This document shows, in pieces, positions 1-32,000 of a stretch of DNA of 32,000 bases (positions are counted from its first letter, which is position 1; each line of letters begins with the position of its first letter). The stretch comes from Candidatus Absconditicoccus praedator. GTDB taxonomy: Bacteria > Patescibacteriota > Gracilibacteria > Absconditabacterales > Absconditicoccaceae. A model generated the notes under the pieces. It saw nothing but the letters and a program-made list of their open reading frames with translations, was not told where the DNA came from and made no database searches. The stretch covers positions 630,001-662,000 of the forward strand of contig NZ_CP054059.1 in the NCBI RefSeq assembly GCF_021057185.1. Reading direction: 5' to 3'. The position numbers and the translations under genes were made by a program.

Positions 1-2358
1 GAAGCTGAAGTTGGTGAAAACGATGATTTGATAGAAGAAATAGTATCAAATTTTTCATCTTCTGAATACAATGAGCAAGAGCTTTCTATAAGAATACTAG
101 AAGATTGAATAGAATTGTCTAATTGAAGACAAATAGACATCCAATATCTTGAAGAGCTCTTCGAGGGGAATCCAAGTAATAACCAAATAGTGGATAAATT
201 AAGTGATGACATTGGTCTTACAGAATCTTGAAAACAAAACCTTCTTGATCAATTAAATGAAGTAGATCAAACTTGGATGGATTCAAGAGATAAAATAAGG
301 GAATGAATAGTTGAAGATATAGAAGAAATGGTAGAAAAATATAATAACGAATCAACTTCCGAAGAAGAAAAACAGCAAATTGCACAAATTTTTGGAGTAG
401 AGTATCCAGATCCTATAAGTTGAGATATGATAGATATAGAAGAAAGGATGGAAGAGGCTGAGAAAAACTTCAAGAATTATATGAAAATGTCTGTTGTTTC
501 ATGATTTATAATAAGAAGATATATGCATGATAATAGCTCTAACAGTTTTTGGAGTAAATGACAATATGAATGAGATAGAAGGTTGGTAGATATTTATTGA
601 GATATTATGTGAGAGTGAAGGTTTAATATGTCTCAAAACCAAATAGATATAGCTTCTACTATAGCCAAAGAAGCAGGAATATTTTTAGTTACTTTACCAA
701 TATGAGGTTTGGCTATACATTGAGCAAGATGGGCTGTTACTTGAGCAAGAGCTTATAGGGCTGCATGATGAATTCAAAGATGATGACAATATATTTGAAG
801 GTGAGATAGACTTAGGAGAGCTTGGTGAGCAAGATGAGCGTCTGAGTTTATGCCTACAGGTAGGTTGTGAAGGTTTTGAATGTGATCACTTGAGTCTGTA
901 GCATGATGATCTGCTTTTATGGCATCTTATGATCAAATCAAGAACTTAATAGATGAAAATCATGAATTTGCTGGAGTCCCAGAATATATGAAGTCGGTTG
1001 TATTCTTTGGAGTTTTTAGAGCTTCTCAGGCTATTAGAAATATGCAAACATTATGAGGTAGATCAAATCCTTTCTACATATGAGAAAACACTTCAAGAGC
1101 TGCTGCCTGAGCGAAATTAGCATGATGAATTACAATAGAGGCTGGAGCTATATGACTTACCGCAGCTGGTATAGATGCTATTGCTTATGATGAAGACCTT
1201 GAGTTAAGTAAAGAAGAATTTTTGCTTTCACTAGCTTTGGTTTCTGTGTTTAGGTGAATAGATAGGACGTGAAGGTCTGAAGTAGTTAGAGTGTTTAGGT
1301 GACCAGATTGAAATTTGAGAGTTTGAAATGCTCAAAGGTGAGGTCAGGATCAAAGAGCTCCACAGCAATGACAGAGATGAAATCAGGAGTCTCCTCAATG
1401 AGCAAGACGTCCTAGAGAAAGTATAAATACTAATGAAAATAGGGTTCTATTGAATAATCTTGAAAGATGAAGAAATTATGATTTATGAGATTGAAGGGCT
1501 CTTAGAGTTACAGATGAAGGAAGGTATGTTCTTACTAAGCCTCATCACAGATCGGATGGAACAACCACTACAAGAGAGTTTGAGTATAATTCTGCTAGAG
1601 AGTTATTGAGTAATGCAAGGATAGATAGAGGTGCATTTTCTAATCTTGGAAGGGAAGTAATGAATAGAAATCGTGAAAGATTTTTGGGTAATTTGGAATG
1701 AAGAGATATTAGTATAGCTTGAAGTAGGTATAGAATAACAAGAGAATGAGATAATGTATATTTTAGAAATTCAAGTAATGGTGAAAGAATTTCTGCCGAA
1801 AGATTTATGCAACAGCACTGAGATGATTTGGTTAATAATTATATAAGAAACTTAGATACTAATGTCTCTGGAAGAATGTCTGATTCTCTTTCTTGAAGAA
1901 AATTATCAGAAGTTAACCCACAATTGTCAAATAATCTTGTTTCAAAATTTGGTCAAAAGGCTCGTGATTGGACAGTATGAAGGGGTATTAATGAAATTAG
2001 GCAAGTAATGAATACTGAATGATTTAGAGCCAAGTTAACTAGTTGAGCAAAATTTGCACTTACATGAAGAGCAAACCCAGCTTGAAAAGATTGGTGATGG
2101 ACTTGAGGTATATATGGATGATTGTTGTTTGCTCCATATTTTGCTGAATCAGTTGATGATAATTTGTGGGAATGAGATTATTTACAACGAATTACTTGAG
2201 ATCCTGAAGACTTATCTTTTGCTAGAACTGCTGTTGATACACTTGCTTTAAGGCATCTTAATGCTTTATGAGCTTTACTTGTTGTTTGAGCTAGTGAGCC
2301 TATTAGACAAATATGAGATGACGAACCTTCAGCAGAATGAGAATATACATTAGAATAA
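1..2358 (+). CDS. Large hypothetical protein, 5'-partial (at least 785 aa), with Gly/Arg-rich low-complexity core
   Basis: Frame 1 has no TAA/TAG from base 1 to TAA 2356-2358 but dozens of in-frame TGA, so it is open only if TGA is sense. No family recognised. Confidence 0.75.
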
Positions 2359-2382
2359 GAAATTTAAAATTAACAACAAAAA

Positions 2383-5196
2383 ATGCCTTTGGAAACTATG
2401 TGAGAAAGGCTTCTAGAACAGTCTTCATCTCCTGAAACTCAAGAAGAGCAAGAAAGAAGTGAGATAATAGAAAACATTAGAAGAGAACTAGATTCAATCA
2501 AGCAAAGTATTGAATCTTCTCAAGAACAGGATTTTTCTGTTAGAGAAGATATATTGAATTTCCTTGATAGATTCAATCAAAGTTTTTGAGATTCTGTACA
2601 GCAGATAGAACAAATCAAACATAATATAGAGTCCAAAGAATCCTTACAAATTGAAGATATACATCAAATAAATGAATTTTTAAGTTCTCTTACTCAAGAA
2701 CAAATAGACGGCTTGGAAGATGATAGGCTTGCAGAAGCATACAATACCTTACAGGATACATCTAGAGAGCTTTCAAATCTTGCAGAGGATGTTTCTTCTA
2801 GTTTGGATGAGTCAAGACAACAAGTTCAAGAAACAGCTAAAGGTAGTTGAGGTATATTTGGTTTTGTTTGATGATGGGTTGCCAATAAATATACAGAAAG
2901 GATAAATGATTGAAAATCAGTAAATAGCTGAATATGGTGAGTTTGATTGTCTGTTGTATGATGGTTTAATTCTGACTTAAAAGATTCAATACTTTGATAT
3001 AAAGATACAAAAAAAACTTATAGACAGGCTCAGGGGGAATTGCCTGATTGAGATGAAGCTGCTGAAGTTACTCAAGAAAAAATAGATGAATTTAAAGAAA
3101 ATTTTAAATCTTCTGTAAAGGAAAAGTTGGAAGAAGAGTTTTGAGTGGATGTAGATGATGAAAAATTTGAGAGAGCATTTTCAAGATGGCAAGAAAATCA
3201 TAACTTTTCAGAGCATATATCAGATAAGTATGATGAACTTCATGAAGCAATGTACTGAGAGTGAAGTTTTAATACGATGTGAGAGCTTTTTGATACTGTG
3301 CTTTATTGACCAAGAGCTTCAATTTGACTTATTTTGGAACTTAGAAAAGAGTGACTTATATCTCTTAGACAAATTTGATTTACTACAGTAGAAAAGTCTT
3401 GACGCTTGGTAGTTCAATTTTGAAAAAATTCTGCATGATTGGTGTCAAATTGAATAGAAACTATCTTTGGTGAGATGGAGATGGATGATTTTATTGATTA
3501 TGTGAAGCAGACTTACTGAAGCTTTGAAGAAATGGATGGTGCAAGCAGAGAAGCAATTCTTGGAATGCTTTATAGGCATTGATGAGTGGTGCATACATTG
3601 TTTCGTGGTATTTGAAATGCTTTTGGTCACTTGATTACCGCTCCTATACAGGTATGAGATGATATAAGTAAGCTTAGAAATGTTAGTTGACATTTTATGG
3701 ATAGTTTAAGCTCCCAAATGGAGGCATGGGATAGGATATCTACTGCTTTTTGAGATTCAGGTAGTGCACTTTGAGCTGATTGAGAACTTAGGTCTTATTT
3801 CCAAAGAATAAATACAAATGTATCTTTGTATCATGCTATTAGTACTGCTTCTGACTATGATGATTTTATAAGAAGAGCAAGTTCTCTTGGTATAGATAAT
3901 GTAGATGAAGCTTTGAGACAAATATGAACTGATGAACTTCCTTCAAGAAGTAATTTTTCTGAATACAAAAGATCTGTATGAAATCGTTTGTGATGATGGT
4001 TTAATGATTTTTGAAATAGAGTACAATCTACTTATTGAGGTTCTCTTTGAAATATACAAGCTTATGTACCAGGTAGTGTAAACAATGAAGCAAGAAGGCT
4101 ATGACAATTCTTGAATAGGTATTGAAACCTTTCTCAAAAAATTATAGACAATGACAGTGTTGTTTCTCGTCTTAGAAAGTGGTTATATCATACTGAAAGA
4201 TCTTTTCAGTCTGCAGAAATGGCTGATATAAATAATTCTGCTCGTTTTTATCTTAATTCTATGGATGATATTCAAGATTTTACAAGAGATCTTAGACATA
4301 TAGCTCGTACCGTTCCAGAAATGCTTGGACATTTTGCCTGAAATATTCCCTTAATAATGCTTGGTTCTGAATTAAAAAATAAACTACAAGATCCGGAAAG
4401 TAGAGAATTTTGAGAGATAATGAGAACTATTGGTTATGTTTTCCCTTTTATTTGACCAGCATTGTTAGTATGAGAGTGATTTAGTATAAAAGATTGAGAA
4501 ATAAATAGTTGGTGAATGGCTTGAGCTTGAGTTTTTATAGCAGGTGTAGATATGTATTTTGTAGTGAAAGATATTCCAAATCACTGACTTTTAAGATCTG
4601 TTGGTAGACATTTTGCTACTCCAGTGACACAAGCTTCAAGGTTTTTTGCTTCTTTGCCTCGTGCCTCATATGATATGTATCATTTTAGTAGGAAAACCTG
4701 AAGAATGGTGGCAAGTAGAGGGGTTGGAAGTCTTCTTAGAGAAGCTGTAGAAACTTCTTCAGGTCGTAGTTTTTTGAGAAGGTGAGCCCTGGCTTGAGCT
4801 TTGATAGCTGGTTGATACTATCTTGTTAATGAATATTTTGATAATGATGAACTTCCTAGAGAAGTTAGAGATAAAATGGATGATCCAGAAAAAATGGATG
4901 AAGTAATAGATGAGCTACGAACTAATTTTTCAAAAGAAGAAAAAAAGGAGGCTATAAAATATGCTATAGTAATTAGACTTTGAGTAGATCCATCTGAAAT
5001 CAATAATTCAAGTTTTGAAGTAGATTTGGAGGAAGATGATTGACAGATAAGTTTAAGATATAAGCTACCATATAGTTGGTTTGGATATGAAGATGAGGAT
5101 GAAGCTGATGATATAGATGAATCAATACTTTCTTCTCAAGTTGTATCTGATAATGTTAGTGATATTGTTAATTATGTTTGAGAAAATGATAAATAA
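2383..5196 (+). CDS. Large hypothetical protein (937 aa), coiled-coil/acidic N-terminus, Gly-rich hydrophobic segments near C-terminus
   Basis: ATG 2383 to TAA 5194-5196, length divisible by 3, TAA/TAG-free with many in-frame TGA. It starts 25 nt after the previous stop. No family recognised. Confidence 0.75.
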
Positions 5197-6694: not shown

Positions 6695-7774
6695 ATGAAC
6701 GAAAGGAAAGAAGGTTTGTTGGAAGAAGTTTTGTCTCAAGAAGGTTTATTGAGAAATTTTGAAAAAACAATCAGAGAAGAGCTTAAAAATAAATTAACAG
6801 CTGGGTTTCTAAATTTAGATGAAAATGAAAAAAGATTTCTTATATGATCAGGTTTTATTCAGTCAAAAGAAGAATTAAAAAAAAGGCTTTTTAAGGTTGC
6901 AATCTCTTTTGGAGTAAATAAAATAGAATTGTATAGAATGTATCCTGATACTGGAAAATTTGAGGTTTTGTTTTCTTATTCTACAGATTCAGAAGATATG
7001 TTAAGTAAAGTGGGAGATGTTTTTGATGCAAAAGAAAATATAAATTTTGAGAATGTTTTGAATTGAGAGCATATGTCTCAAGTTGGTGTGGATTGAGTTG
7101 GTATTGATATAGCATTTAGATTTTCTAATAATAACGTTGTTATATGACTTGATAATGTAAATTGTGCAAGAGAGTTTACAGAGATAGAAAAGATGCTAAT
7201 ACAGCCATTTGCTTCAGAATTGGCTCTAGCATATGATGCAGGTAATCTTTTGTTTAAAAATTCATCTGATAGTCTTACAAAAGTTTTGAATAGGTGAGCT
7301 TTTGATAAAAGAATAGAAAATTGAGTTTGAATATTTTGACAACCTATGCCAGATCCTTTATGAATTGTGTTTTTTGATATAGATCATTTTAAGCAGGTAA
7401 ATGATGTGCGATGACATGAAGCAGGTGATAAAATACTTATATGAGTAAGTAGGGTTCTTCATGATTATTTATCTAAGGTAGATTGAGAGCTTTATAGGTA
7501 CTGATGAGAAGAGTTTGTTGCAGTAATACCACAAGACTCTTGATTTGAAACTGCACAACAGATAAAATCTTATCTTGAAGAGATAAGGCAGTATGTTTGT
7601 TCTTTGAGATGAGATTTTTATGGTATAGGTGAAGAGTTTGATTGAGTTAGTTTTTCATCATGAGTTTCTTTGATAAAAGATCAATCAACAGAAGCAAGGA
7701 TACAAGCAGTAAGAGATGCGGATTATCTAGTTTATGATGCAAAAAATTCTTGAAGAAATTGTATTAAAATATAA
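6695..7774 (+). CDS. GGDEF-domain diguanylate cyclase with N-terminal sensor (GAF-like?) region, 359 aa
   Basis: Motifs DSLTKVLNRGAF, FFDIDHFKQVNDVRGHEAGD, RYGGEEF (TAC TGA TGA GAA GAG TTT at 7499-7516) and DAKNSGRNC. Several invariant Gly are encoded by TGA. Confidence 0.9.
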
Positions 7775-8732: not shown

Positions 8733-9953
8733 ATGTTTAAAAAAACAGTTTTATCCCTTTTTTGAATAAGTTTAATGTTTCTTGTTTGATGTCAAATTCC
8801 TTTTTTAGATGATGATACAGAAAAGGAGATTGACTTAGAAAGTGCTACATTTCAGCCTATATACGAATCAAAACTAGAAAAAGCATTTGAAAATTATTCT
8901 ATGATAGAGTCTATTTATGATGATTGATATGTCTGAGAAGAGCTAAATATAGAATTTGATTGATACGTATGAGATTATTTTGAATGAAATTTTGACTTGG
9001 ATTTGGATGTGCAAACTTCTACAAATGATTCTATTGTGGATGTTAATTCACTGGTAAATCTAGCTTTATTGTGAGATGTTATGATGAAAGAAATTTGACA
9101 GCAGATGGAATTTTGAGTAGATGTTTTGTGAAAGTTAAAAGTTTTGGAATGACATATCTTTTGAAATCTAGAAAGCTTTGACATTATTTCTGATGATCCC
9201 CAAGTTTGATTTGCTGCAGCATTTTTGTCGAATTTTGAAAATCAACGAATCAAACTTTATGATTTGGCAGAATTAAGTGAAATTGATGATTTTGATATAA
9301 ATATGAATTTTAGTGAGTGACTTCAAATTTTGTATGATATCAAAAATGTTCTAAAAAATTATCCTGTATTGGATTCTGATTCAAGGGCTGTATATGATGA
9401 CTATATTTCATTTGATTTGGAAATAGATGAAGATAATTTAAAAATACTCTTAAAAGAACTTTTAGAGGATGAAGAAATATTAGATGATATTGTGCCATAT
9501 ATTGATAAGGTTGATATGGAAGCAAATATGAATTATTATGAAAATTGAGATGTTTCTATAAATATAGATAAAATTTCTTTTGATGAGTTTTTGCAGGTAA
9601 CATGAAAACTTTGAGAAAAAGAATGAAATTTAAGTTTTGATATTGATAATATTGGAGAAAGTTTTTCATTGGAATTGGATTATACTAAAGAAGATGGACT
9701 ATGTGTTGTAAACTGAAAAATTATTCAAGATGAGGATTTGGCAAGATTTGAAGTTGTTTGAGATATTAGTATTGATGACTCCAAAGTGAAGACAGATTTT
9801 GATGTTTCTGTAAATTCTATATCAGAAAATGTAGAACAGTTTGAATTTAATTTAAGTATACAAGATGAGGTTTATCCAATAGATGATATAGAAATACAAA
9901 AACCTTCTGACTTTCTTGATATTGAGCAAATGTGACAATGATTGTGATTTTAG
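8733..9953 (+). CDS. Acidic lipoprotein, 406 aa, function unknown
   Basis: N-terminus MFKKTVLSLFGISLMFLVGC has a lipobox L-V-G-C whose Gly is a TGA. The rest is D/E-rich. Ends at TAG 9951-9953. Confidence 0.7.
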
Positions 9954-9977: not shown

Positions 9978-11390
9978 ATGGGATTTAAACGCAAAAAACT
10001 ATGAAAGTTTTGAAATTTTTCTGACTTGTTTAGTTGGCTTAGAGAAAGTTTTATAAATATGGCTTTTTCTTTAAAGCTTTTTTTGGTAATTTTAAGTTTT
10101 GGTATATTATTTCATCTTTCCAGTTATGCTATAGATTTCTGAAGAGGTTTAGTAAATAGTGCTGTTGTGACTTTTGTACAAACTATGAGCAGCACTGTAG
10201 GCGAAGAAATGAGTACAGATAAGTTTGGCCAAGTAAATGCTTTACTTTTATGAGCAGATGAATGAAACCTAGCAGATAGTATTATAGTAGCTTCTTTTGT
10301 CCCAGATGAGTGATTGGTTAGTATGTTATCTATACCAAGAGATTTGTATGTAGAAAACTCTTCTTTGAATTATCAATGAAGAATTAATTGAATAATACCT
10401 ACTACATATAATCGTACTGATAGTCTTGAGGAATGAATATGGAATTTGTCTGATACCATAAATGATATTACTTGAGTAGAAATTGACTATTATGCCATGA
10501 TAGATTTTGACTGATTTGTTAATTTTATTGATAAAATTTGATGAATACAGGTTGATGTGCCTTATTCTATTGTTGATAACCAGTTTCCAACTCCCGATGG
10601 CTGATATCAAACTTTCAAGGTGGATGAGTGATTGCAACAATTTGATGGTGAGAAGGCACTTAAGTATGCAAGAAGTAGACAAACTACATCAGATTTTTCA
10701 AGAGCAGAAAGGCAGCAACTAATAATTTCTGGTATAATAGATGAATTAAAAAGTATGAATGTGTTTACAGACTTTGGGCAGTTACAGGATTTGTATGCTG
10801 AAGTAAATCAAATGGTAGATACAAATATAAGTTATAGGCAAATATTTGGTATGATAAATTATGTTGATGATATAAATTGAATACATACTCAAGTGTTGAC
10901 TGCAGATTGTGAGAGATCTCATTATACTGTAATGGAGCCATGATGTTTCCTTTATTATCCAAGAAGAGATAATTTTGGTTGACATTCAGTACTTTTGCAA
11001 CAATGAGCAAATGCAGGAAATTTTAGTAATTACAAAGAGATACAAAATTACGCATTTTTTGTGTTGCATAATCAATGATTTCTTCAGGAGAATTCTAGTA
11101 TAGAAATATTAAACTGAATAAGTAGACAGGCTATGTTGGAAGAGTTTCAAAGAGTAACCCCAGTGGCTAGTAATTTTGCTAAACAGCTTGTTAAATATTG
11201 ATTCAATATTAAAGAGGTGGACAATTATGAAGATGATGAAATAGAAGAAAATATTATATACACAAATAGTAAAGAAGATAATAAGGTTACTTTAAATCTT
11301 TTAAGAATGTTTATGGAGGTAGGAGAAATTATAGAAGATCCTTCCTTGGAAAGTGATATTCAAATAGTTTTGTCAGATAATTTCTTGTAA
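9978..11390 (+). CDS. LytR-CpsA-Psr (LCP) family cell-envelope polymer transferase, 470 aa
   Basis: N-terminal TM, then ADSIIVASF..SMLSIPRDLYV, YYAMIDFDGFVNFIDKIGGIQVDVP, FDGEKALKYARSRQTTSDFSRAERQQ: the characteristic LCP core. Confidence 0.85.
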
Positions 11391-11552: not shown

Positions 11553-12413
11553 ATGGAAGCTGCTTTATGGTTTTTTGGTTTGTTGTTGATAGCTCTTGCT
11601 GCTACCATAGTTTTTCATACTCTTATAAAAGTTTCACCTTATGAAAGATGAGTAAAAGAGAGACTTTCCAAATATGTGGGAACTTTGGAGGCTTGATGGC
11701 ATATAATAGTGCCATTTATAGAATCGGTTAAAAAAGTTGATATGAGAGAAAGGGTGGTTAATACACCTGCTCACAATATGATAACTTATGATAATGCTGC
11801 TGTTACAGTTGATGCAGTAATATTTACTCAAATATACGATGCTAAAAAATCTGTATATGAAATACAGGATCCATTATTGGCTGTATCCAATCTTTGAGTA
11901 ACAACACTAAGGTGAATAATATGAACTATGAGTTTGGATGATATTTTATGAGATAGGACTAAGATAAATACTTATGTACAAACACAGCTTGCTCAAGAAA
12001 CAGCAAAATGGTGAATAAGAATAAACAAGGTAGAAATTCAAAAAATAGATCCTCCGCAAGATCTTGTGGATGCTATGAGTAAACAAAAAATTGCTCAACA
12101 AGAAAAGAGAGCATCAATTCTTAAGGCTGAATGACAAAGAGAAGCATATATTATAGAAGCTCAATGATACAAAGAAAAGCAAATTTTGGAAGCTCAATGA
12201 GAAGCAGAAGCTATAGAAAGACTTGCACAAGCAAGAGCAAAAGAGATAGAATATGAATCTACAGCTGCTATAAATTTCTTCCAGTGAAATGCTATCACAA
12301 AAGAACAATTGAAGGTCGCAAAAGATGCCTTGAAAGAAAATACAAAATTTGTAGTTTGATCAGAAATTACAGATACTGTTAGATGAATTTTTGAAAAGAT
12401 AATAAAAAATTAA
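11553..12413 (+). CDS. SPFH/Band-7 (stomatin/prohibitin-like) membrane protein, 286 aa
   Basis: N-terminal TM, then VSPYERGVKERLSKY, LEAGWHIIVPFIESV, VDAVIF, LRGIIGTMSLDDILGDR, WGIRINKVEIQKIDPP and an Ala/Glu/Gln-rich coiled coil, typical of SPFH. Confidence 0.9.
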
Positions 12414-15252: not shown

Positions 15253-15681
15253 TTAACAAATATATGATGTACTGCAATTTATAAGATCATTTTCTTCTTT
15301 CATCCATTCTTGAATTCATCACTTTAAATGAAATGCTTTTTCAAATCACATATTTTCCATAATATCCAAAGTATGAGAGGTTCTATTGCCAGTATTGCAG
15401 TAAATTAGATATTTTTTATCTTTATCTAGATTTTTGAGTATCTCTAAAAACTCTTTGCTGTAGTATTCAATTTTTTTTGCTTTTGGTATATGTCAAGTGT
15501 TTTGAAGTTCATGCTTGTTTCTTATATCTATTATTTGATACTTTCAGCTTTGTTTTAGATTCACAAACTCTTCTGTAGATATACTGTTGAAATTATTTTT
15601 ATAATTAGTAGTGTTTTGTTGTATACATCAAGTTAAAAAACTAAATGATATAGTTGTAATTATTATAAAAAGTTTTTGCAT
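15253..15681 (-). CDS. Rhodanese-domain lipoprotein (sulfurtransferase-like), 142 aa
   Basis: Lipobox FSFLTGC (Gly = TGA). Rhodanese pattern IIDIRNKHELQNTGHIPKA ... YLIYCNTGNRTSHT ... GFEKAFHLKGGIQEW with the active-site Cys loop C-x-x-G-x-R. Confidence 0.85.
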
Positions 15682-17338: not shown

Positions 17339-18202
17339 ATGGAAAGACATAAACCTGTGCTTGTTGAAGAAGTTTTTTCTTTTGTCCCTGAAAAAGCTAA
17401 AATATTGGTAGATGGGACTTTGTGACATTGATGACACACTCAGTATATTCTTGAAAATATTGAACATAATAGTATAGAAAAAATTTATGGGATTGATGTG
17501 GATAGTAAAGTTTTGTGAAGAGCAAGAGAAAACTTATTTGGATACGAAAAAAAACTTGTCTTTACAAATGATTCATATTCAAATATAGATAAAATCTTAA
17601 ATCCTAATAGTGTTGACTTCATATTGCTTGATTTGGGAGTAAATATGGAGCACTTTAAAGATTTTGATAGAGGGTTTTCAATAAAGGAGAATTCATATTT
17701 GGATATGACATTTGATGGAAGTAAAAATACGGCAGCTAATTTTATAAATACTGCTTCAACAGATACTATTGCAAGTATGCTTCATGACTTTGGGGATTTT
17801 AGCTATAAATTTTCCCAGGCTATTGCAGATACAATAATACAAAAAAGAAAAATTAAGCCAATAAATACAACTTTTGAACTTATAGATATTTTGAAAGAGT
17901 TTAGATTTTGACAAAAAAAGATTGCTGTGGTCTTTCAATGTATAAGAATAAAAGTAAACTTAGAATTAGAAAAATTGAAAACCTTTTTGGATAAACTTCC
18001 ATATATATTATCAAAATGATGAGTTTGTGCGATAATAACATATCATAGTATAGAAGATAGAATTGTAAAATTTGCATTCAAGGATTATTCAAAAAATTGA
18101 TTTCAATTAATAAACAAAAAAGTAATAAAACCATCTTGGGAAGAAATAAGTAATAATAAGGCTGCTAGAAGTGCAAAGCTAAGATGAATAAAACTTTTAT
18201 AA
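17339..18202 (+). CDS. rsmH: 16S rRNA (cytosine1402-N4)-methyltransferase RsmH, 287 aa
   Basis: HKPVLVEEV; DGTLGHGGHT encoded GAT GGG ACT TTG TGA CAT TGA TGA CAC (17411-17437); LLDLGVN; ITYHSIEDRIVKF; NNKAARSAKLR. Confidence 0.95.
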
Positions 18203-18218: not shown

Positions 18219-18608
18219 ATGAAAAAAGTTGTTTTCCTAAATAATTTATCTAAGCAGTACAATAACATAAGACAAAAAGTAAAGAAAAATTATAGAATGA
18301 TAGATTGAATTAAGCTTTTTATTACTGTATGAATATTTGTGTTAACTGTGTGAGCTTACTGATACTTTGTAAACGTTAGTTCCACTAAATGATACTTTCT
18401 AAGAGAAGAAGAGAGAAAACTTAACGATGCAGAGTTTTCTCATAGTATAGCTCGTCTTGATGTATTGGAAAAAGAAAGACAAATACGGAGAGATATTCAG
18501 GAGGATTCAATATTTAATCAAGATAATATATGAAGACAGCCTCAAGGGCTTTCTGTACATGATAGGGTTATACATATACAACCAGAGGTTCAGCTTACTC
18601 ATAATTAA
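18219..18608 (+). CDS. FtsL/DivIC-like cell-division protein candidate, 129 aa
   Basis: Lies immediately after rsmH, as in dcw (cell division/cell wall) clusters. Basic N-terminus, one TM (IKLFITVGIFVLTVGAYGYF), then a coiled-coil-like segment. Confidence 0.45.
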
Positions 18609-18851: not shown

Positions 18852-19611
18852 GGTCTTGGGTACTTTAGCCTAAAGAAGAAGTAAAATTTTTACATAATTT
18901 CATTAGTTGTTTATATTTATTTTGTTTCAATAATCAACAATTAAATCTCCATTCACATTCTTTTAGGTATATATCATAATATTCCTTTTTGATTCAGTTA
19001 AATTTAGCCAATCTTCTTTTACAATAGCTTCGAAAACTTTCTATTCAATTTATATGTTGTTTTCATCTAGCAAACTCATTATTACTATGTTTAACTCTAT
19101 AGTGTTTCTTGTATCATAAGTCTACTAATCAATCATAGCTTTTCCAGTAGTCTGTGTTTATCTTGCTGTTCTCTAAACTTACTTTATCTCTTATAATTGG
19201 TATTAAAGTTTCTGCTGAACAATCAGGAACTATACGCACATAAACTTCTCACTCTCTCTTCAATAGTCATAAAATCTTAATTTTTCAACTAGCTCAACGT
19301 CATCTTTTTCACCTAACTCTTCTAGCTCCAAAGTAGCTCTCATCTATCTCTACTACTCATCATCGTATCTCTAAATCTGTTTCTTTACTATGGTTGTATA
19401 TTACTTCTCTAAAGTATTTATACCACCTATTTACTGTTTTTCTTTCAATATTTAATAAATTACTTGTTGTTGAAGCAGTCAAATCTTCACAAAATAGCTT
19501 CATAATTTGTCTTGTTTTTTGTACACTCAAATGGCTATTTTTTCTATAAGGGTTTTTCATAGTTATGACCTAGTATAATTAATTTCTTTTTGCTTTCAAG
19601 TACTCTAGACC
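18852..19611 (-). mobile_element. IS1595-family insertion sequence (about 760 bp)
   Basis: Imperfect terminal inverted repeats: GGTCTTGGGTACTTTA (18852-18867) against the reverse complement of 19596-19611 (GGTCTAGAGTACTTGA), 13/16 matches. They enclose a single transposase gene. No clean target duplication found. Confidence 0.65.
18865..19560 (-). CDS. IS1595-family (ISXO2-like) DDE transposase, 231 aa
   Basis: The track ORF 19360..19560 continues through TGA=Gly. Motifs: LTASTTSNLLNIERKTVNRWYKYFREVI, GGVVEIDEAYFGARRVRGKRGRGASGK, LIPIIRDKV, INTDYWKSYDGL, HINGIESFRSYCKRRLAKFNGI, YLKECEWRFN. Confidence 0.9.
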
Positions 19612-19778: not shown

Positions 19779-19805
19779 ATAGGAGATTTCTCTCCTATTT
19801 TTTTA
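19779..19805. terminator. Bidirectional rho-independent terminator
   Basis: Perfect 8-bp stem ATAGGAGA-tttc-TCTCCTAT with T-runs on both strands. The dus stop codon (19795-19797) lies inside the 3' arm. Confidence 0.7.
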
Positions 19806-20817
19806 TAAATTTTGAAATTTCATTTCTAAGTTGATGATGTGTTTTTATATTTACTATTTTTTGTTTGAAATCCTTGCTATTTGGTAGTCATTTTAAATAA
19901 GCAAATAAATGCTTCCTAAATTCTATAGGTGATTTAAGCTTGTTGTTATCTTTTTTTAATAGATTTTGTTTTTCTTTTTGAATTCCTTGCTCTTTGATTG
20001 TTGGTAAGTATTTATTTCATTTGTATTTTTCAAAAATACTTTCTAATGAACACATCTCATCAAGATGTTCTAATATTGTTTCTAGTATCTCATTGTAGTT
20101 GGGGGTGGTGTTTGTAAATATCCATGGATTTCATATGCTAGCTTGTCATATCATTATCCCATCCAAATTACCTATTTTTTCTTTTGCTTTTGCATAACTG
20201 TCTATTCATCAGTTTCCAAAAATTTTGCATCAAAAGTTAGAGTTTTGTCTGATTTCATATATAGTTTCTCGATCTACATCCCCAGAATGAGCTTGTTTAA
20301 AAGTTCTTCAATGAACTGTTATTAGGTTGCAAAAATTAGAAGCCTCAATAATAAATTTTTTTTGTGAATTTATGTCATATTTGTCTACTCATATTCTTGT
20401 TTTGATACTAAAGGGAGAGTTTATCTTTCTTGATATTTTTTGTATAAGTTTTAGGGTTTTTTCTTTTTCATAAAGCATTCATGCTCAACCTCCAGATGAC
20501 ACTACCTTGGGAGAAGGACATCAAATATTTAGTTCCAATCAGGAAAAATTATAGTTTTTGTCTATATCTTCAAATGTTTCCAAGAGTTCATACTCATCTC
20601 ATCAGTATATTTGTGCTGTAAGATTTTTTTCTTGGGTTGTGTTAAGTATGTGTTTGTAAACTCATTCAGGATTGCGAATATATCCACTTGCATTCATAAA
20701 TTCTGTGAACAGGAAAAACTCATCGGTTTTTTGTGTTTGTTGCTCAAAAACTTTCTGACAAATTCTTCTATAAGCACTATCTGTAATTCAATCCATAGGA
20801 GCAAGTGCAAGATTCAT
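19795..20817 (-). CDS. dus: tRNA-dihydrouridine synthase (Dus family), 340 aa
   Basis: MNLALAPMDGITDSAYRRIC; LELNIGCPSPKVVSSGGGAGML; SIKTRIG; ITVHGRTFKQ; FGNGGI; GIMIGQASIGNPWIF. Confidence 0.9.
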
Positions 20818-23918: not shown

Positions 23919-25230
23919 TTGAAGAGGGTCACCCCAGTCTTGTCCGAAACATTGATTTTATTATAAAAAAAGCTATAAGTATAGCATTTAAAATAATAAA
24001 ATATATTTAAATATGGAAGGAATTAATGTAAAACAGATATTAGAAATAATACCTGATGAATTTATAGAAAAATTAGAAAAAAACTGTAATATAAATCATC
24101 AAGTTAAAAAAATGAGTTGAAAGGTAATGTTTAAACTGTTATTAATGTGAATATTAGATTGAGATAATTTAACACAAAGAACATTAGCATCAATATATAA
24201 CAGTCCTGAATTTACTCAATATGCAGATAAATGAGAACAACAAACAAGACATACAACTATAAGTGATAGACTTATAAACATGGATTATAAATTCTTTGAG
24301 AAATTGTTTGAAGAAATAAGTAAAAAGTTTGAAAAAGTATTAAAAATATGAGCAACAAAAATGAAGGTGGTGCTAAAGAGATTTGATTCTACATTAGTTT
24401 GAATATCAGAAAAACTACTTAAGTTTTGAATAAAAGCATGAAGTCCAGATGAAAGACATATAAAATTTACAGTCTGATTAAAGTGATTGTTGCCAAATAA
24501 AGTTTCAGTTTATGAAGAGCAAAAAGCAAGTAGTGAAGATGTAGCATTATGAGAAACTATTTTACAAGAGACAACATCTAAAAATCAAATATTATTATTT
24601 GATAGATGAGTTCAAAAAAGAGAAACTTATTCAAAGCTAATAGATAAAAATACAAATTTTGTAAGTAGATTAAGACAAAATACTAAGTATCAAGTTATAA
24701 GACAAAATAAAGAAGTAGAATGAATAAAAGTATGAAATTTAGTGTTAGAATGTGATGAAATAGTAAAATTATATTGAAAATGATGAGATATATTAGAAAA
24801 AGAATTAAGATTAATAAAAGCAATAAATCAAAAAAATGAAGTATTTTTATTTATAACAAATATGTATAATTTCACAGCAGAAGAAATAACAGAATTTTAT
24901 GCAAGGAGATGGGATATAGAAGTATTTTTTAGATTTATAAAACAAGAATTTTGATTTAGTCATTTTGTATCAAGATCAAAGAATTGAATAATGAATATGC
25001 TATATATGACACTAATAACATCAATACTTGTAATAGTATATAAATCAAAAAACAGTATAAAATCCTACAAAGAAGCTAAAAGAAGATTTATTGCTGAATT
25101 AGATGAATTAATTTTAATTGAGCTAGCAATAGCAATCTGAGGAGATGTTGATCTTCTTAAAAAGAAATATTTAAATTATTATAAATACTCTTAATAAGGT
25201 TTCGGACAAGACTGGGGTGACCCCCTTCAA
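23919..25230 (+). mobile_element. IS4-family insertion sequence (1312 bp)
   Basis: 32-bp terminal inverted repeats with one mismatch: TTGAAGAGGGTCACCCCAGTCTTGTCCGAAAC (23919-23950) and the reverse complement of 25199-25230. They flank one transposase ORF. The GC-rich ends stand out from the AT-rich background. Confidence 0.85.
24013..25194 (+). CDS. IS4-family DDE transposase, 393 aa
   Basis: KRFDSTLV, LLFDRGVQ (DRG with TGA Gly) and EITEFYARRWDIEVFFRFIKQEFGFSHF (the Y-x-x-R-W-x-I-E signature). Many in-frame TGA. Confidence 0.85.
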
Positions 25231-28461: not shown

Positions 28462-29124
28462 TTATATTGTTTGCCTTTGTTCTTCTATCCATTGTCTTTG
28501 CTCTTGTATCCAATCAAAATCAATTTCATCAGAGTATTCTTTATTCTCTTCAAACCATTGTAAATTATTCTCCATTGTATTTATTGCTTCAAAAGCTTCA
28601 GACCTTGATGCATTTCAATTTCTATATTGAGTTAGTATATTTACCATTTCATTATCTTCTTCTAATCTCTCTCACATTTCTCAAGTCATTTCTAATCCTT
28701 CTCTAGATTGTTCTAATTCTGATCTAGATTGTTCTAATTCTGATCTAGATTGTTCTAATTCTGATCTAGATTGTTCTAATTCTTGTTGAGATTCTTCATA
28801 CTGTTCTTTCATACTATCATCTTCTGCTATATCGTCCCATGCATGAGCTGGTGGTATTACAAAATTTACTCATTTTGCTAGCATAGATTTTATTCATTCT
28901 GAAATTCTATCTCATACTCATTTTCTTTCTACTTGCTCCAATACTTCTGATTCTGGTATTGATACAGTTTGTCAATTCTCCAAATTTTTTCAATCTCAAA
29001 TTTGTATATTCAATGCCAAAAGTGCCGCTGCCGCACTTGTCAGTACTGTATTTCTTAGTCATTTGGATTCTTTTTCTTCTATTTTATCCCTTGTCTCTGG
29101 TGTTTGATTCATTCTTTCTGCCAT
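28462..29124 (-). CDS. Membrane-anchored coiled-coil protein 'A2' (paralog of A1), 220 aa
   Basis: The N-terminal 95 aa are almost identical to A1. Next comes a (ELEQSRS)x4 heptad array and a diverged but alignable C-terminus (NILTQYRNGNA..EAINTMENNLQWFEEN against NVLLEWQQGNA..EAIDAYNVRRDNLNWYEAN). Confidence 0.7.
28702..28785. repeat. 21-bp tandem repeat inside A2 (ELEQSRS heptads)
   Basis: tctagattgttctaattctga x3 perfect (28702-28764) plus a fourth unit with changes at its end. Confidence 0.9.
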
Positions 29125-29217
29125 GAGTATTTTGGGTTATGAAATTAAAACTTACTTTGATTATTAATCAAATTTACCATTATGTCAAGTATAAATTTTT
29201 TGGGTGGATTTGTCAAA
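28841..29217. repeat. Duplication, copy 2 of A 5' half plus promoter
   Basis: Near-identical by eye to 27750-28127. Confidence 0.85.
29161..29216 (-). promoter_or_regulatory. Second copy of the tandem promoters plus palindrome, upstream of A2
   Basis: Minus-strand TTGACA boxes at 29216-29211 and 29188-29183, with TATACT (29193-29188) and TAATAA (29166-29161). The palindrome TTGATTATTAATCAA lies at 29157-29171. Confidence 0.5.
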
Positions 29218-29219
29218 TA

Positions 29220-30059
29220 TTACTTAGTTGCAATAAATAGTAAAGTATTTCATCTAGAAGCTAAATTTTCATCATATAAATTGCTATACTCTAAGTCTAA
29301 AATTTTATTAAAAGTATTTTTATCTTTTAAAATGTTATATTTTTGTTCATTTTGTCATTTTAGAAATGTTTCTTCCATTCAAGGATATATATAATTTAAT
29401 AGTCAATAAACTTTCACTTCTTTAAATCAATTATTCTTAAAAAGATTTCTTAATTCATCTGGGGTAAAGCAATGCATATAAGGCATTAAATCGTTAAATC
29501 TAATTTTATTATTATTTATACTATCTAATTCATTAATTCTATTCGTTAACAACGAAAAATAATAAGAATGATGTTTATTTCAAACTATTCAAATATATTT
29601 TCATCAATCATTTAATTTTTTATATACTTCTCATATAGCTGTATTATAATCATTTACAAAACTTAATACATTATAAAAAGAAATAGCAAAGTCATAATAA
29701 TTATTTATATAATCATCTAGATTTTCAATATTTCATACTGAACTTTTAAAATTGTTTTGAATTCTTAATTTTTTAATTTTATTATCTGCTTCATCAAGCA
29801 TTTCTTTTGTAATATCAATTAAATCGGCTTTTAATTCTACTTTATTTTTTAATATTTCATAAAAATTTAAAGCCCATCTTCAAGTTCAAGCTCACGCATC
29901 TAATAATTTTAGTTCATTTTTTTGATTTTCTTTTAATATATCTATTAAAAATTTTTTAGCTAATTCATCTGATAAAACCCAATATAATTGTTCATCGACT
30001 AGATCATATTCAGAAGCTTTTTTAGAAAAATAACTTGTTACATCATTATAATAACTCAT
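29220..30059 (-). CDS. Class I SAM-dependent methyltransferase, 279 aa (alternative start at 30104 gives 294 aa)
   Basis: MSYYNDVTSYFSKKASEYD; motif I LLDAGAGTG encoded GAT GCG TGA GCT TGA ACT TGA; LNDGGKYIGIV. Track ORF 29892..30104 is its N-terminus, cut at the first TGA. Confidence 0.8.
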
Positions 30060-30084
30060 AAAAAAATAATTAAAAAATAAAAAA

Positions 30085-31113
30085 CTATAAAACTCAGGAT
30101 TCATTAATAAAAACTTTTTGATTATCCATATCCAAAGTTGTTTCTGCTCACATTGGTATCACAAACATAGGATCTGTATGTCCAAAATCCATATTTGTAA
30201 TTATTGGTAAATTATCCAAACCAAATTCTCACTTCACTATTTTCAAAATAGATTCATTATAATTTTTTTCATCTTGGGCTCTTCATACAATTATTCAATT
30301 TATATTTTCCAAAATTCATTGCACTCACATAGTTCTCAAAATTCTTTCAAGATTGCCTTCAGATATATTTTCTTCAGAAGTTTCAAAAAACATTATTTTT
30401 CATTTCCATTCATCTGCAGTTGGCCAAAGTTCTGTTCACCACATAAAATAAAATACATCTATACATCATCACAATAATTCTCATTTAATAAGTCAATTTC
30501 ACTGCAAAAATCTCCATCATGTATTAGGATTTAATTTTCTTTTTATATTAAGATTTTCTGGATTTCACCAATCTAAAAATTCGTTAGTCCATCAATTAGT
30601 ATTTGGTTTGATTTCTCAAATTATGTTATTATTAAATAATGTTTTTTCTACGCTTTCTATCATGTATTCAAACATTCCTGCATTTTCTGCAAATCAAGCC
30701 ATGATTGCTGGTCAATAATAACTCCTCAATCATGCTTTGTAGCAAATAAAATGCGTGATAGTACTATCAGAATATCACATATAAATTTTTGGATTATTCC
30801 TAATAATATTAAAATCAATGTATGGTAATATTCTAATGCTGTCATCTCATCAAATACTTGAAAATATTGCATCAATACTTGAATCTAAAAATGCATTCAT
30901 CAAGTCTTCTGCTCTTTTTTTAGGATTATTATAAACAAATCAAGGATCTTTTATTGTATTTTCCATTTCAATTATTTCTACTCAAAAATGTTCTTTTAAT
31001 TGTTTGATTCAATTGTTATATCTATAAGGGAAAGTTCCAGGTCATCACCAAGAACTACTAACTACAGCTATTTTTGATCATTTTTTTAATTTTTTAGGGA
31101 TTTTAAAAATCAT
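30085..31113 (-). CDS. S66 family LD-carboxypeptidase (LdcA/MccF-like serine peptidase), 342 aa
   Basis: IAVVSSSWGG; AIFSSIGGDDSIRILPYID; nucleophile motif IYMGYSDSTITH; LLGGCIDV; MFFETSEE; NMDFGHTDPMFVIPMG (Ser-Glu-His triad context). Confidence 0.85.
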
Positions 31114-31216
31114 AATTAAGTAATTATTAATAAAATTATTCTAATATTTCATTTGAAATAAATTCTTTCAAAATATGAGTTTTTTCACTATTATTAAATT
31201 AAAAAATAAAATTTAA

Positions 31217-32000
31217 TTAAAAGTTTTTTCATAATAATTCTATTCCAGTTCAAAATACTACTTGTTTAAGTCACTTAGTCTGTAATAATTCATTTGCCCA
31301 ATTAACACTTCATCAATCAGATATATCAGTATATATTCATCTGTCTCATTCTATAAAAATTGTAAATATTGTTCAACTATAATGCCCAATTCATGCAAGT
31401 CTTGAAAAATCTATTTCTATATTTGATATTAAAGACATATCTATATTATTTATCAGATTTTTGAAATAAATGTAATATTTTGAATCTTTGATATCATCTA
31501 TTCAAAATTTATATTTTTCATCTATGTTTAAATCCTTTAAAATATTAGAAGAAAATCAATTTCAGTATTCATTTCTATAGTTATATACTATTTGTTCAAC
31601 TTCTTGATTTTGTAATCAAAATTGTTCTTTTAATATTTTATATAAAATCATTCAATGTGATAATTGTATAGTAATTTTTCATATATTAAGTCAATTTTCT
31701 CTTAAATATTTTAAAAATTTTAAGTTGTTGTTTATTATTTCTGCAATTGATTTATCAAAATCTTCATTTGTAGTACCTTTTTTACAGATTTGTATTCAAG
31801 ATCAAGTTTTAAAATAGGGTAAATATAAAGGGTTTGAAAATTTTTGATTTCTTATTGAAGTAGAAATTGTAAATAATGAAACATCATTTTTATTTTCTTT
31901 TTTAAATCTACTTACTCATTCTAATGTTAAAGAATATGTTGGATCATTTATTAATTCAGAATTAAATCAGGTTGTAATTACTTTATAAGGAGAATTTTTT
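31217..32000 (-). CDS. Class-II aminoacyl-tRNA-synthetase-like protein of the HisRS/HisZ type, 5'-partial (260 aa seen), no anticodon-binding domain
   Basis: The frame from 31999 is TAA/TAG-free down to TAA 31217-31219. GKITIQLSHGMILYKILKEQFGL resembles the HisRS/HisZ l-x-l-G-H-x-g-i-l region. FSRLAGIGHYSGTIFTIF resembles motif 3 R-G-L-D-Y-Y-T-G-x-v-F-E. DGGSVN replaces GGRYD. The protein ends about 10 aa after GTGIELL. Confidence 0.4.

What the first reader, a model, noticed from the sequence alone, without database searches (positions are those of the whole stretch)
1..32000. TGA is a sense codon for glycine (translation table 25), which hides nearly every gene from a standard-code ORF scan
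Seen directly: frames of 0.4-2.8 kb lack TAA/TAG but carry TGA every few to few dozen codons.

The TGAs fall on invariant glycines of unrelated families:
- RsmH D-G-T-L-G-H-G-G-H (TGA at 17423, 17429, 17432).
- GGDEF R-Y-G-G-E-E-F (TGA TGA at 7502-7507).
- Methyltransferase motif I D-A-G-A-G-T-G.
- S66 peptidase G-Y-S-D-S.
- IS4 transposase D-R-G.
- Dus N-I-G-C-P.
- The -1 position of two lipoboxes (LVGC in 8733..9953, LTGC in 15253..15681), where Trp is not tolerated.

TGG is still used where Trp is expected. Table 25 is established for Gracilibacteria and Absconditabacteria/SR1. Assigning this fragment to those lineages is inference.
Basis: partly seen in the sequence, partly recalled or inferred. 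Interest (0 to 1): 0.8.

Follow-up and report, generated by a model that had tools for sequence, protein, structure and literature searches.

The report
UGA read as glycine; known genome

Summary

- **ORF structure:** With TAA/TAG as the only stops, 36 frames (median 236 codons, longest 940) cover 92.5% of the window. Table 11 gives 72 fragments (median 77 codons) covering 55.6%.
- **Codon counts:** In 31 ORFs TGA is 5.2% of codons, GGN 1.7% and TGG 0.65%. TGA+GGN is 6.9%, a normal glycine content.
- **Independent alignments:** Against solved structures from standard-code organisms, 45 of 78 aligned TGA positions fall on Gly and 2 on Trp.
- **Profile scores:** Across six Pfam domains in five genes, Gly beats Trp by 215 bits in total.
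- **RsmH motif:** The three TGAs at 17423, 17429 and 17432 sit on columns that are Gly in 37 of 37 standard-code orthologues.
- **Source:** Table-25 translations of six genes match GenBank proteins UFX83094.1–UFX83125.1 of Ca. Absconditicoccus praedator exactly (complete genome, 1,129,696 bp).

GenBank shows Arg at the three checked by exact protein match. TGA supplies 75% of glycine codons, the highest share of 44 related loci sampled. The tRNA-Gly(UCA) gene and the loss of RF2 could not be checked.

The parts
1..32000 (.). Whole window: a chromosome segment of Ca. Absconditicoccus praedator in which only TAA and TAG terminate genes. There are about 31 genes, and TGA is 5.2% of codons.
   Evidence: ORF structure and codon counts. 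(exact matches to GenBank UFX83094.1-UFX83125.1). (0 mismatches over 15,196 bp to a Logan contig from SRR15691272).
17339..18202 (+). rsmH (16S rRNA m4C1402 methyltransferase), 9 TGA codons. Those at 17423, 17429, 17432, 18017 and 18020 lie on conserved glycines.
   Evidence: Pfam PF01795 scores 227.6 bits with TGA as X, 245.1 as G and 222.9 as W. Columns 29, 31 and 32 are Gly in 37 of 37 standard-code orthologues, and GGN or TGA in the recoded clade. Alignments to PDB 1m6y and 1wg8.
30085..31113 (-). S66 peptidase (LD-carboxypeptidase/MccF-like), 30 TGA codons, including the G-Y-S-D-S nucleophile motif at 30763-30777.
   Evidence: Against PDB 5f9m (305 bits), 22 of the 29 aligned TGA positions (30 TGA codons, one opposite a gap) fall on Gly and none on Trp; TGG falls on Trp in 5 of 7. 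Pfam S66 N- and C-terminal domains score 106.9/100.7 bits with G and 69.5/55.0 with W.
19795..20817 (-). tRNA dihydrouridine synthase (Dus), 17 TGA codons (N-I-G-C-P at 20515-20529) and one CGA at 20269-20271 on the family's conserved aromatic/Trp column.
   Evidence: Pfam PF01207 scores 123.9 (X), 160.6 (G) and 107.0 (W) for TGA. For the CGA site the scores are R 160.6, L 163.0, F 163.5, Y 165.6, W 167.2. The site aligns to Trp in PDB 1vhn. Clade orthologues have CGA x6, TGG x2 and CGG x2 there.
6695..7774 (+). GGDEF diguanylate cyclase, 19 TGA codons (the GG of GGEEF is TGA TGA at 7502-7507) and one CGA at 7409-7411.
   Evidence: Pfam PF00990 scores 86.9 (X), 102.8 (G) and 69.8 (W). The CGA site scores R 102.8 and W 106.1 and aligns to Trp in PDB 4zve and Tyr in 3ign.
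11553..12413 (+). SPFH/Band 7 (stomatin-like) protein, 13 TGA codons.
   Evidence: Pfam PF01145 scores 122.3 (X), 139.1 (G) and 115.5 (W). Against PDB 8z5g, 6 of 10 TGA positions fall on Gly.
29220..30104 (-). Class I SAM-dependent methyltransferase. Motif I D-A-G-A-G-T-G at 29880-29900 has all three glycines as TGA.
18865..19560 (-). IS1595-family transposase, 14 TGA codons, with a CGA at 19030-19032 on a profile column that prefers Trp.
   Evidence: Pfam PF12762 scores for that site: R 94.4, Y 95.7, L 96.7, F 98.4, W 99.2. GenBank UFX83113.1 matches exactly, and there are further copies in the genome.
18219..18608 (+). Small membrane protein downstream of rsmH, in the position where ftsL usually lies. 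It has 6 TGA codons and a CGG at 18486-18488.
   Evidence: Codons at the same aligned position in clade orthologues: TGG x8, CGA x7, CGG x1, TAT x2, CAA x2, CTC x1.
23919..25230 (+). IS4-family insertion sequence. The transposase gene is 24013-25194 with 20 TGA codons (D-R-G at 24601-24609), flanked by 74-nt imperfect inverted repeats.
   Evidence: Pfam PF01609. Inverted repeat I1. Motif coordinates.
8733..9953 (+). Predicted lipoprotein. Lipobox L-V-G-C at 8781-8792, with Gly encoded by TGA.
   Evidence: The lipobox rule comes from established knowledge, not a tool result.
15253..15681 (-). Rhodanese-domain lipoprotein. Lipobox L-T-G-C at 15625-15636, with Gly encoded by TGA.
   Evidence: Pfam PF00581. 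Coordinates.
9978..11390 (+). LytR-CpsA-Psr family protein, 22 TGA codons.
   Evidence: Pfam PF03816 scores 93.5 bits with TGA masked as X.

Best explanation
The window is a chromosomal segment of Candidatus Absconditicoccus praedator (Absconditabacteria/SR1, Patescibacteria).

**How it is decoded.** In this organism UGA is an ordinary sense codon for glycine, and only UAA and UAG terminate translation. By established knowledge of the lineage, a tRNA-Gly with anticodon UCA, charged by glycyl-tRNA synthetase, reads UGA, and release factor 2 is absent. This mechanism is inferred here, not shown, because neither gene lies in the accessible sequence.

**How far it has gone.** In this 27.7%-GC genome UGA has become the main glycine codon, at 75% of glycine codons. 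A standard-code ORF scan therefore cuts almost every gene into pieces.

**A second departure.** The rare codons CGA and probably CGG appear to encode tryptophan rather than arginine. That would make the real code 'table 25 plus CGA/CGG = Trp', as Codetta predicted for Absconditabacteria. I put this second point at about 0.85.
For: **Shown here**
- ORF structure and shuffles.
- Codon counts: TGA 479, GGN 155 and TGG 60 of 9217 codons. TGA+GGN is 6.9%, inside the 5.2-8.8% range seen in 44 clade loci.
- Alignments to solved structures for five genes: 45 Gly and 2 Trp in 78 aligned TGA positions, binomial P about 1e-32 against a 6.6% Gly background. TGG falls on Trp in 9 of 14.
- Pfam scores with TGA as G minus TGA as W: +33.0, +23.6, +22.2, +53.6, +37.4 and +45.7 bits (X baselines).
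- RsmH codon alignment: the window's motif TGAs lie on columns that are Gly in 37 of 37 standard-code orthologues. Across the clade, 56 of 58 TGAs on columns at least 80% conserved fall on Gly. The 37 standard-code orthologues have no in-frame TGA, while 42 of 43 clade orthologues have at least one.
- Window TGA codons align to GGN or TGA in 56% of clade comparisons.
- Identity: six exact matches to GenBank proteins of Ca. A. praedator.

**CGA/CGG = Trp**
- Replacing R with W raises Pfam scores by +6.6, +4.8 and +3.3 bits, and W beats Y, F, L and H at all three sites.
- The clade interchanges CGA, TGG and CGG at the window's Dus and ftsL-position sites.
- Opposite clade CGA codons, standard-code orthologues show Arg outside the top six residues, against 59% Arg for AGA.

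**From the literature**
- UGA = Gly in SR1 and Gracilibacteria; tRNA-Gly(UCA) charged by GlyRS (Campbell 2013, as summarised in PMC13293708).
- Proteomic support in a BD1-5 bacterium (PMC4032931).
- The Codetta screen and its CGA/CGG prediction (PMC8629427).
Against: - No tRNA gene lies in the window.
- The only tRNAs in the 5.5 kb upstream flank are Met and Ser. The 1.85 kb downstream flank (L082) was not scanned for tRNAs.
- None of the 43 related loci carries a tRNA(UCA).
- prfB presence or absence could not be examined.
- Two of the 78 aligned TGA positions fall on Trp in the structural partner: a weakly conserved Dus column and a gapped SPFH region.
- The CGA/CGG claim rests on only four informative sites in the window. 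Nine other CGA/CGG codons are uninformative.
- No protein-level data exist here, so low-level ambiguous decoding cannot be excluded.
Confidence: 0.97

Rival explanations
1. UGA is read as tryptophan (translation table 4, as in Mycoplasma, Spiroplasma and some insect endosymbionts).
For: Table 4 gives exactly the same ORF boundaries as table 25. Public catalogues do hold these very genes translated that way, in the Logan assembly of SRR15691272.
Against: TGA is 5.2% of codons, about five to eight times a normal Trp content, while GGN is only 1.7%. Only 2 of 78 aligned TGA positions fall on Trp, against 45 on Gly. Pfam scores drop below even the masked (X) translation when W is used: for example Dus scores 107.0 against 123.9 (X) and 160.6 (G).
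Confidence: 0.01
2. UGA is still a stop codon, and the window is a field of pseudogenes, a sequencing artefact, or genes rescued by selenocysteine insertion or programmed read-through.
For: Under table 11 nearly every gene is interrupted.
Against: There are no internal TAA or TAG in 9217 codons against 479 TGA, which decay would not produce. The TGAs sit on invariant catalytic and structural glycines. Full-length homology runs through them; for example S66 scores 305 bits end to end against PDB 5f9m. No Rfam family, including any SECIS element, reaches its gathering score. At one TGA per 19 codons, selenocysteine insertion is implausible.
Confidence: 0.005
3. Strict table 25: UGA = Gly and every other codon standard, so CGA and CGG are ordinary rare arginine codons, as in the GenBank annotation.
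For: GenBank translations with Arg at three of the four informative CGA/CGG sites match exactly, so that is the deposited reading. Only 13 CGA/CGG codons exist in the window and 9 are uninformative. One clade CGA column is 100% Arg in its standard-code partners (L020, 5 hits).
Against: All three CGA codons that fall in Pfam-modelled conserved columns score best as Trp, by +14.7 bits in total over Arg. Two of them align to Trp in solved structures. Clade orthologues interchange CGA, CGG and TGG at the same positions. Across 70 clade CGA columns, Arg is not among the six commonest residues in standard-code orthologues, against 40-59% Arg for AGA, CGT and CGC. Codetta's genome-wide inference says the same (PMC8629427).
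Confidence: 0.12
4. UGA is decoded ambiguously: mostly Gly, but with an appreciable fraction of Trp (U34 wobble between UGA and UGG) or of termination.
For: Hanke et al. found 3 peptides unique to a UGA = Trp database against 97 unique to UGA = Gly, and discuss low-level mistranslation (PMC4032931). Shulgina & Eddy note the wobble risk between UGA and UGG.
Against: With TGA at 5.2% of codons and at catalytic glycines in every gene, more than trace misreading would damage almost every protein. Sequence data cannot measure this.
Confidence: 0.05

Closest known systems
NCBI translation table 25 (Candidate Division SR1 and Gracilibacteria code; Campbell et al. 2013, Rinke et al. 2013)
   Same: UGA encodes glycine, UAA and UAG are the only stops, and UGG remains Trp. 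The organism belongs to the lineage for which the table was defined, and its GenBank record is translated with UGA as glycine, as in this table.
   Different: The informative CGA/CGG codons here do not behave as arginine. UGA usage is extreme: 75% of glycine codons, against 10-64% in 43 related loci.
Absconditabacteria code inferred by Codetta (Shulgina & Eddy 2021, eLife; PMC8629427): UGA = Gly plus CGA and CGG = Trp
   Same: Both reassignments are seen in this window. CGA and CGG are rare (12 and 2 per 10,000 codons), as that paper describes for the clade, and AGA dominates arginine (289 per 10,000).
   Different: Nothing detected. This genome is one more member, and a cultivated one. The prediction remains computational.
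Translation table 4 (Mycoplasma/Spiroplasma; UGA = Trp)
   Same: It shares the same two-stop ORF structure and the low genomic GC.
   Different: The amino acid differs. Here UGA falls on glycine columns and is far too frequent to be Trp.

Membership tests
Translation table 25 (SR1/Gracilibacteria code) | In-frame UGA inside conserved genes, falling on glycine columns of homologues from standard-code organisms | tested here: met
   45 of 78 aligned positions are Gly and 2 are Trp. Gly beats Trp by 215 Pfam bits. The RsmH motif columns are Gly in 37 of 37 standard-code orthologues.
Translation table 25 (SR1/Gracilibacteria code) | UAA and UAG remain the stop codons | tested here: met
   There is no internal TAA or TAG in 9217 codons, and the ORFs end in TAA (24) or TAG (7). 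Coverage is 92.5% with these two stops.
Translation table 25 (SR1/Gracilibacteria code) | UGG remains tryptophan | tested here: met
   TGG aligns to Trp in 9 of 14 positions against solved structures. TGG usage is 0.65% of codons.
Translation table 25 (SR1/Gracilibacteria code) | The organism belongs to Absconditabacteria/Gracilibacteria | tested here: met
   Six proteins are identical to GenBank entries of Ca. Absconditicoccus praedator. The nearest RsmH relatives are SR1 and Absconditabacterales genomes.
Translation table 25 (SR1/Gracilibacteria code) | tRNA-Gly with anticodon UCA and glycine identity elements (G1:C72, C2:G71, G3:C70, U73) | not testable with these tools
   No tRNA lies in the window. 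The upstream flank has only tRNA-Met and tRNA-Ser. No tRNA(UCA) lies in 43 related loci. The rest of the genome could not be fetched.
Translation table 25 (SR1/Gracilibacteria code) | Loss of release factor 2 (prfB) | not testable with these tools
   This needs the whole genome.
Translation table 25 (SR1/Gracilibacteria code) | All 63 other codons keep their standard meaning | tested here: not met
   CGA (three sites) and CGG (one site) behave as Trp. Clade-wide, CGA columns are not Arg. The sample in the window is small, at 4 informative codons out of 13.
Absconditabacteria code of Shulgina & Eddy 2021 (UGA = Gly; CGA, CGG = Trp) | CGA/CGG fall on Trp or aromatic columns, and interchange with TGG among relatives | tested here: met
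   R to W gains: Dus +6.6 bits, IS1595 +4.8, GGDEF +3.3, and W is the best of W, Y, F, L, H and R. Clade codons at the Dus site are CGA 6, TGG 2, CGG 2; at the ftsL-position site TGG 8, CGA 7, CGG 1.
Absconditabacteria code of Shulgina & Eddy 2021 (UGA = Gly; CGA, CGG = Trp) | tRNA(UCG)/(CCG) with Trp-like identity (G73, no A20) | not testable with these tools
Translation table 4 (UGA = Trp) | UGA falls on tryptophan columns and is used at about Trp frequency | tested here: not met
   2 of 78 positions fall on Trp. TGA is 5.2% of codons. The W translation scores below the masked translation in all six Pfam domains.
Selenocysteine recoding of UGA | Rare UGA in a few selenoprotein genes, each with a SECIS element | tested here: not met
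   479 TGAs are spread over all 31 ORFs. No Rfam family reaches its gathering score.

The most novel reading that the evidence does not exclude
In Ca. Absconditicoccus praedator, described as cultivated in co-culture with its prey (Yakimov 2022, not read here), CGA and CGG are tryptophan codons. If so, the deposited table-25 annotation puts Arg where the cell puts Trp, at about 14 codons per 10,000, including conserved aromatic positions of Dus, GGDEF and IS1595 transposase. This would be a bacterial sense-codon reassignment, so far only predicted computationally, sitting in an organism that can be grown and therefore tested directly by proteomics.
Probability: 0.85. Interest if true: 0.4.

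Novelty: already known. Interest (0 to 1): 0.15.

Why it matters
For discovery it matters little. UGA = Gly in SR1 and Gracilibacteria has been established since 2013, it has its own NCBI table, and this exact genome is published and annotated that way.

It has practical value in three ways:
- **Wrong translations in public catalogues.** The same genes also sit in public protein catalogues translated with table 4, with a Trp at every one of 479 glycine positions in this window alone.
- **An incomplete table.** Table 25 itself is probably incomplete for this clade, because CGA/CGG look like Trp. Deposited proteins would then carry wrong residues at conserved aromatic sites.
- **A test system.** The organism is cultivable in co-culture, so it could give the first protein-level test of a predicted bacterial sense-codon reassignment.

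The 75% share of UGA among glycine codons also shows how far a captured stop codon can displace the original codon family under AT pressure.

Tried and rejected
- **Own genome not reachable.** An exact look-up of the GenBank RsmH (P0001) in the contig index found nothing. The single genome-contig scan returned 80 RsmH loci but not A. praedator itself. The rest of the genome, with tRNA(UCA), tRNA(UCG) and prfB, therefore stayed out of reach.
- **tRNA searches came up empty.** ARAGORN found no tRNA(UCA) on the window, on 43 recoded-clade loci, or on the upstream Logan flank L081.
- **Flanks add little.** Logan contigs of the same organism, found through table-4 translations, extend the window by only 5.5 kb upstream and 1.85 kb downstream.
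- **Rfam.** No family reaches its gathering score.
- **Key papers not held.** Yakimov et al. 2022 and Campbell et al. 2013 are not in the library. Their content is cited only through papers that summarise them.
- **Uninformative CGA sites.** IS1595 residue 66 and UPF0489 residue 127 change the profile score by only 0.1 bit. The UPF0489 site aligns to mixed codons in relatives.
- **Shadow ORF.** I first called the plus-strand frame 28451-29167 as a gene. It is a shadow of a minus-strand gene.
- **Not done.** I did not scan all 20 amino acids at the TGA or CGA positions. Only G, W and X were tried for TGA, and R, W, Y, F, L, H and X for CGA.
Full report

The window is 27.7% GC.

| Stop codons used | Non-overlapping frames of 60+ codons | Median codons | Longest | Coverage |
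|---|---|---|---|---|
| TAA, TAG, TGA (table 11) | 72 | 77 | 248 | 55.6% |
| TAA, TAG only | 36 | 236 | 940 | 92.5% |
| TAA, TGA (TAG freed, control) | 82 | 83 | 295 | 70% |
| TAG, TGA (TAA freed, control) | 75 | 97 | 363 | 78% |
| TAA, TAG on 100 shuffles | – | – | mean 130, max 196 | mean 36% |

- In the 31 ORFs I called there are 479 in-frame TGAs and no internal TAA or TAG in 9217 codons. The ORFs end in TAA (24) or TAG (7).
- The two other registers of the same ORFs carry 669 and 561 TAA+TAG.

**2. Which amino acid does TGA encode?**

*Frequency.* TGA is 5.2% of codons, the four GGN codons together 1.7%, and TGG 0.65%. TGA+GGN is 6.9%, a normal glycine content. TGA+TGG would be nearly 6% tryptophan, which is not credible.

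*Families.* With TGA masked as X, Pfam still recognises the following: GGDEF, LytR-CpsA-Psr, SPFH/Band 7, TetR, rhodanese, RsmH, IS1595 and IS4 transposases, Dus, a class I methyltransferase, UPF0489 and both S66 peptidase domains.

*Solved structures.* I aligned five genes to their best solved-structure homologues, all from standard-code organisms, and tallied the aligned residues by script.
- Of 78 aligned TGA positions, 45 are Gly and 2 are Trp. The rest are mainly Thr, Ala, Ser, Asp and Glu. The background Gly frequency is 6.6%, giving a binomial P of about 1e-32.
- The S66 peptidase alone has 30 TGA codons, 29 of them aligned. Against Bacillus 5f9m (305 bits), 22 are Gly and none is Trp.
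- TGG aligns to Trp in 9 of 14 positions. GGN aligns to Gly in 20 of 41, about the same rate as TGA.

| Pfam domain | TGA as X | TGA as G | TGA as W |
|---|---|---|---|
| GGDEF | 86.9 | 102.8 | 69.8 |
| Band 7 | 122.3 | 139.1 | 115.5 |
| RsmH | 227.6 | 245.1 | 222.9 |
| Dus | 123.9 | 160.6 | 107.0 |
| S66, N-terminal | 78.2 | 106.9 | 69.5 |
| S66, C-terminal | 66.0 | 100.7 | 55.0 |

Glycine beats tryptophan by 215 bits in total, and tryptophan scores worse than masking.

*Codon-level comparison.* A scan of one genome per species with an RsmH alignment gave 80 loci.
- The 37 loci from standard-code phyla, including four at 30-31% GC, have no in-frame TGA in rsmH.
- 42 of the 43 loci labelled SR1, Absconditabacteria, Gracilibacteria or Peribacteria have between 1 and 11.
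- The window's TGAs at 17423, 17429 and 17432 lie on columns that are Gly in 37 of 37 standard-code orthologues. In the recoded clade those columns are GGN or TGA.
- Across the clade, 56 of 58 TGAs on columns at least 80% conserved fall on Gly.
- In a wider comparison of all flanking genes, 102 of 112 such TGAs fall on Gly.

**3. Where does the window come from?**

- The RsmH protein is identical, with X read as G, to the NCBI RsmH of Candidatus Absconditicoccus praedator, on a contig of 1,129,696 bp.
- Table-25 translations of six genes are exact matches to GenBank UFX83094.1, UFX83097.1, UFX83101.1, UFX83113.1, UFX83114.1 and UFX83125.1 of that organism.
- A Logan contig from run SRR15691272 is identical to the window over 15,196 bp.
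- The organism is described in the literature as a predatory member of the SR1/Absconditabacteria lineage (Yakimov et al. 2022, cited in PMC13293708).

UGA = Gly in this lineage rests on published work:
- Campbell et al. 2013 report UGA at conserved glycine positions and a tRNA-Gly(UCA) charged by GlyRS, as summarised in PMC13293708.
- Hanke et al. 2014 found 97 peptides unique to a UGA = Gly database against 3 unique to UGA = Trp.
- Shulgina & Eddy 2021 inferred UGA = G in 6 of 6 Absconditabacteria and 13 of 15 Gracilibacteria.
- Moreira et al. 2021 report the same for the relative Vampirococcus.

The finding is therefore correct and already known, down to this genome's own annotation.

**4.

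Shulgina & Eddy also predict that Absconditabacteria reassigned CGA and CGG from Arg to Trp. They stress that only experiment can confirm this. The window has 11 CGA and 2 CGG codons in frame.

Three CGA codons fall in Pfam-modelled conserved columns. At each one Trp is the best of the residues tried:

| Site (window position) | R | H | L | F | Y | W |
|---|---|---|---|---|---|---|
| Dus residue 183 (20269) | 160.6 | – | 163.0 | 163.5 | 165.6 | 167.2 |
| IS1595 residue 177 (19030) | 94.4 | – | 96.7 | 98.4 | 95.7 | 99.2 |
| GGDEF residue 239 (7409) | 102.8 | 103.2 | – | 104.7 | 106.0 | 106.1 |

- The Dus site aligns to Trp in T. maritima 1vhn, and the GGDEF site to Trp in E. coli DosC.
- At the DNA level, the Dus CGA aligns in ten clade orthologues to CGA (6), TGG (2) and CGG (2).
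- The CGG at 18486, in the small membrane protein downstream of rsmH, aligns to TGG (8), CGA (7), CGG (1), TAT (2), CAA (2) and CTC (1).
- Opposite the window's own TGG codons, the clade uses CGA as often as TGG, 19% each.
- Across 70 clade CGA codons with standard-code orthologues, Arg is not among the six commonest aligned residues. For AGA, CGT and CGC, Arg is 59%, 50% and 40%.
- Two further CGA sites (IS1595 residue 66, UPF0489 residue 127) are uninformative, and the rest lie in unconserved proteins.
- GenBank has Arg at the three of the four informative sites that were checked, since the exact matches were made with Arg.

I rate CGA = Trp here at about 0.85. CGG rests on a single site.

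**5. Degree of UGA capture**

TGA supplies 75% of glycine codons in the window. That is the highest share among 44 loci of the recoded clade, where the others range from 10% to 64%. Total glycine content stays between 5.2% and 8.8%. The TGA share falls as GC rises (r = -0.65). This fits AT mutation pressure favouring the only glycine codon with a single G or C.

**6. What could not be shown**

- No tRNA lies in the window, and none with anticodon UCA lies in the upstream flank that was scanned or in the related loci.
- prfB status needs the whole genome, which the tools did not return.
- The mechanism (tRNA-Gly(UCA), loss of RF2) is therefore taken from the literature on the lineage, not demonstrated for this genome here.

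**7. Verdict**

The novelty class is 'already known'. The only point with some residual interest is the CGA/CGG = Trp signal in a cultivable organism whose deposited annotation uses plain table 25.

Noticed in passing
window 7409-7411, 19030-19032, 20269-20271 (CGA); 18486-18488 (CGG): These rare CGA/CGG codons sit on Trp or aromatic columns and interchange with TGG in relatives. This fits the published Codetta prediction that Absconditabacteria read CGA/CGG as Trp. GenBank translates the three checked by exact match (7409, 19030, 20269) as Arg.
   Followed up: yes
whole window, compared with L001-L042 and L044: TGA supplies 75% of glycine codons here, the highest share of 44 recoded-clade loci (others 10-64%). 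Total glycine content stays normal, and the share falls as GC rises (r = -0.65).
   Followed up: yes
window 26973-28129 and 28159-29221 (minus-strand genes): A tandem duplication of about 1.1 kb at 89-96% identity. Gene 28072-28434 is a truncated copy of the N-terminus of the 624-aa acidic protein at 25374-27248. Gene 28462-29124 is a paralogue of 27269-28033. All lack Pfam matches and carry short acidic repeats.
   Followed up: partly
window 28451-29167, plus strand: A 239-codon frame free of TAA and TAG is only the antisense shadow of the real minus-strand gene. With two stop codons and low GC, long shadow ORFs arise easily and can mislead a longest-ORF gene call.
   Followed up: yes
window 23919-25230 and 18865-19560: Two insertion sequences. 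One is an IS4-family element with 74-nt imperfect terminal inverted repeats. The other is an IS1595-family transposase gene that has at least two or three further near-identical copies elsewhere in the genome (UFX83268.1; UFX83255.1 and WP_231176323.1).
   Followed up: partly
proteins P0122, P0124, P0126, P0132, P0136 (Logan assembly of SRR15691272; loci L081, L082): Public protein catalogues hold the same genes translated with table 4. They differ from the GenBank proteins only by Trp at every TGA position (59 in one 937-aa protein). Some relatives' RsmH entries also show W at the Gly motif.
   Followed up: yes
window 1-5196; L081 3372-10694: Two adjacent very large genes have no Pfam match. 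The first is 1494 aa in full on L081, the second 937 aa. They have higher GC (33%) than the rest of the window, several hydrophobic stretches, and 6-8% TGA codons. GenBank calls the second (UFX83094.1) hypothetical.
   Followed up: no
window 1-16000 compared with 26000-32000: Very strong GC skew follows the coding strand: +0.23 to +0.34 where genes are on the plus strand, and -0.19 to -0.28 where they are on the minus strand.
   Followed up: no
L041 (RsmH frame, codon 195); also L005 and L012: In a few related genomes a CGA codon sits on an invariant or strongly conserved glycine column (37 of 37 Gly for L041). L041 also has the highest CGA usage and no TGG in the aligned frames. It is unexplained: it could be sequencing error, a T-to-C change from TGA, or a different meaning of CGA in that lineage.
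   Followed up: no
window 13073-13516, plus strand: A small membrane protein gives a weak match to PrgI (PF12666, 24.2 bits, below the 27-bit cut-off). PrgI is a type IV secretion component. No other secretion genes were recognised nearby.
   Followed up: no
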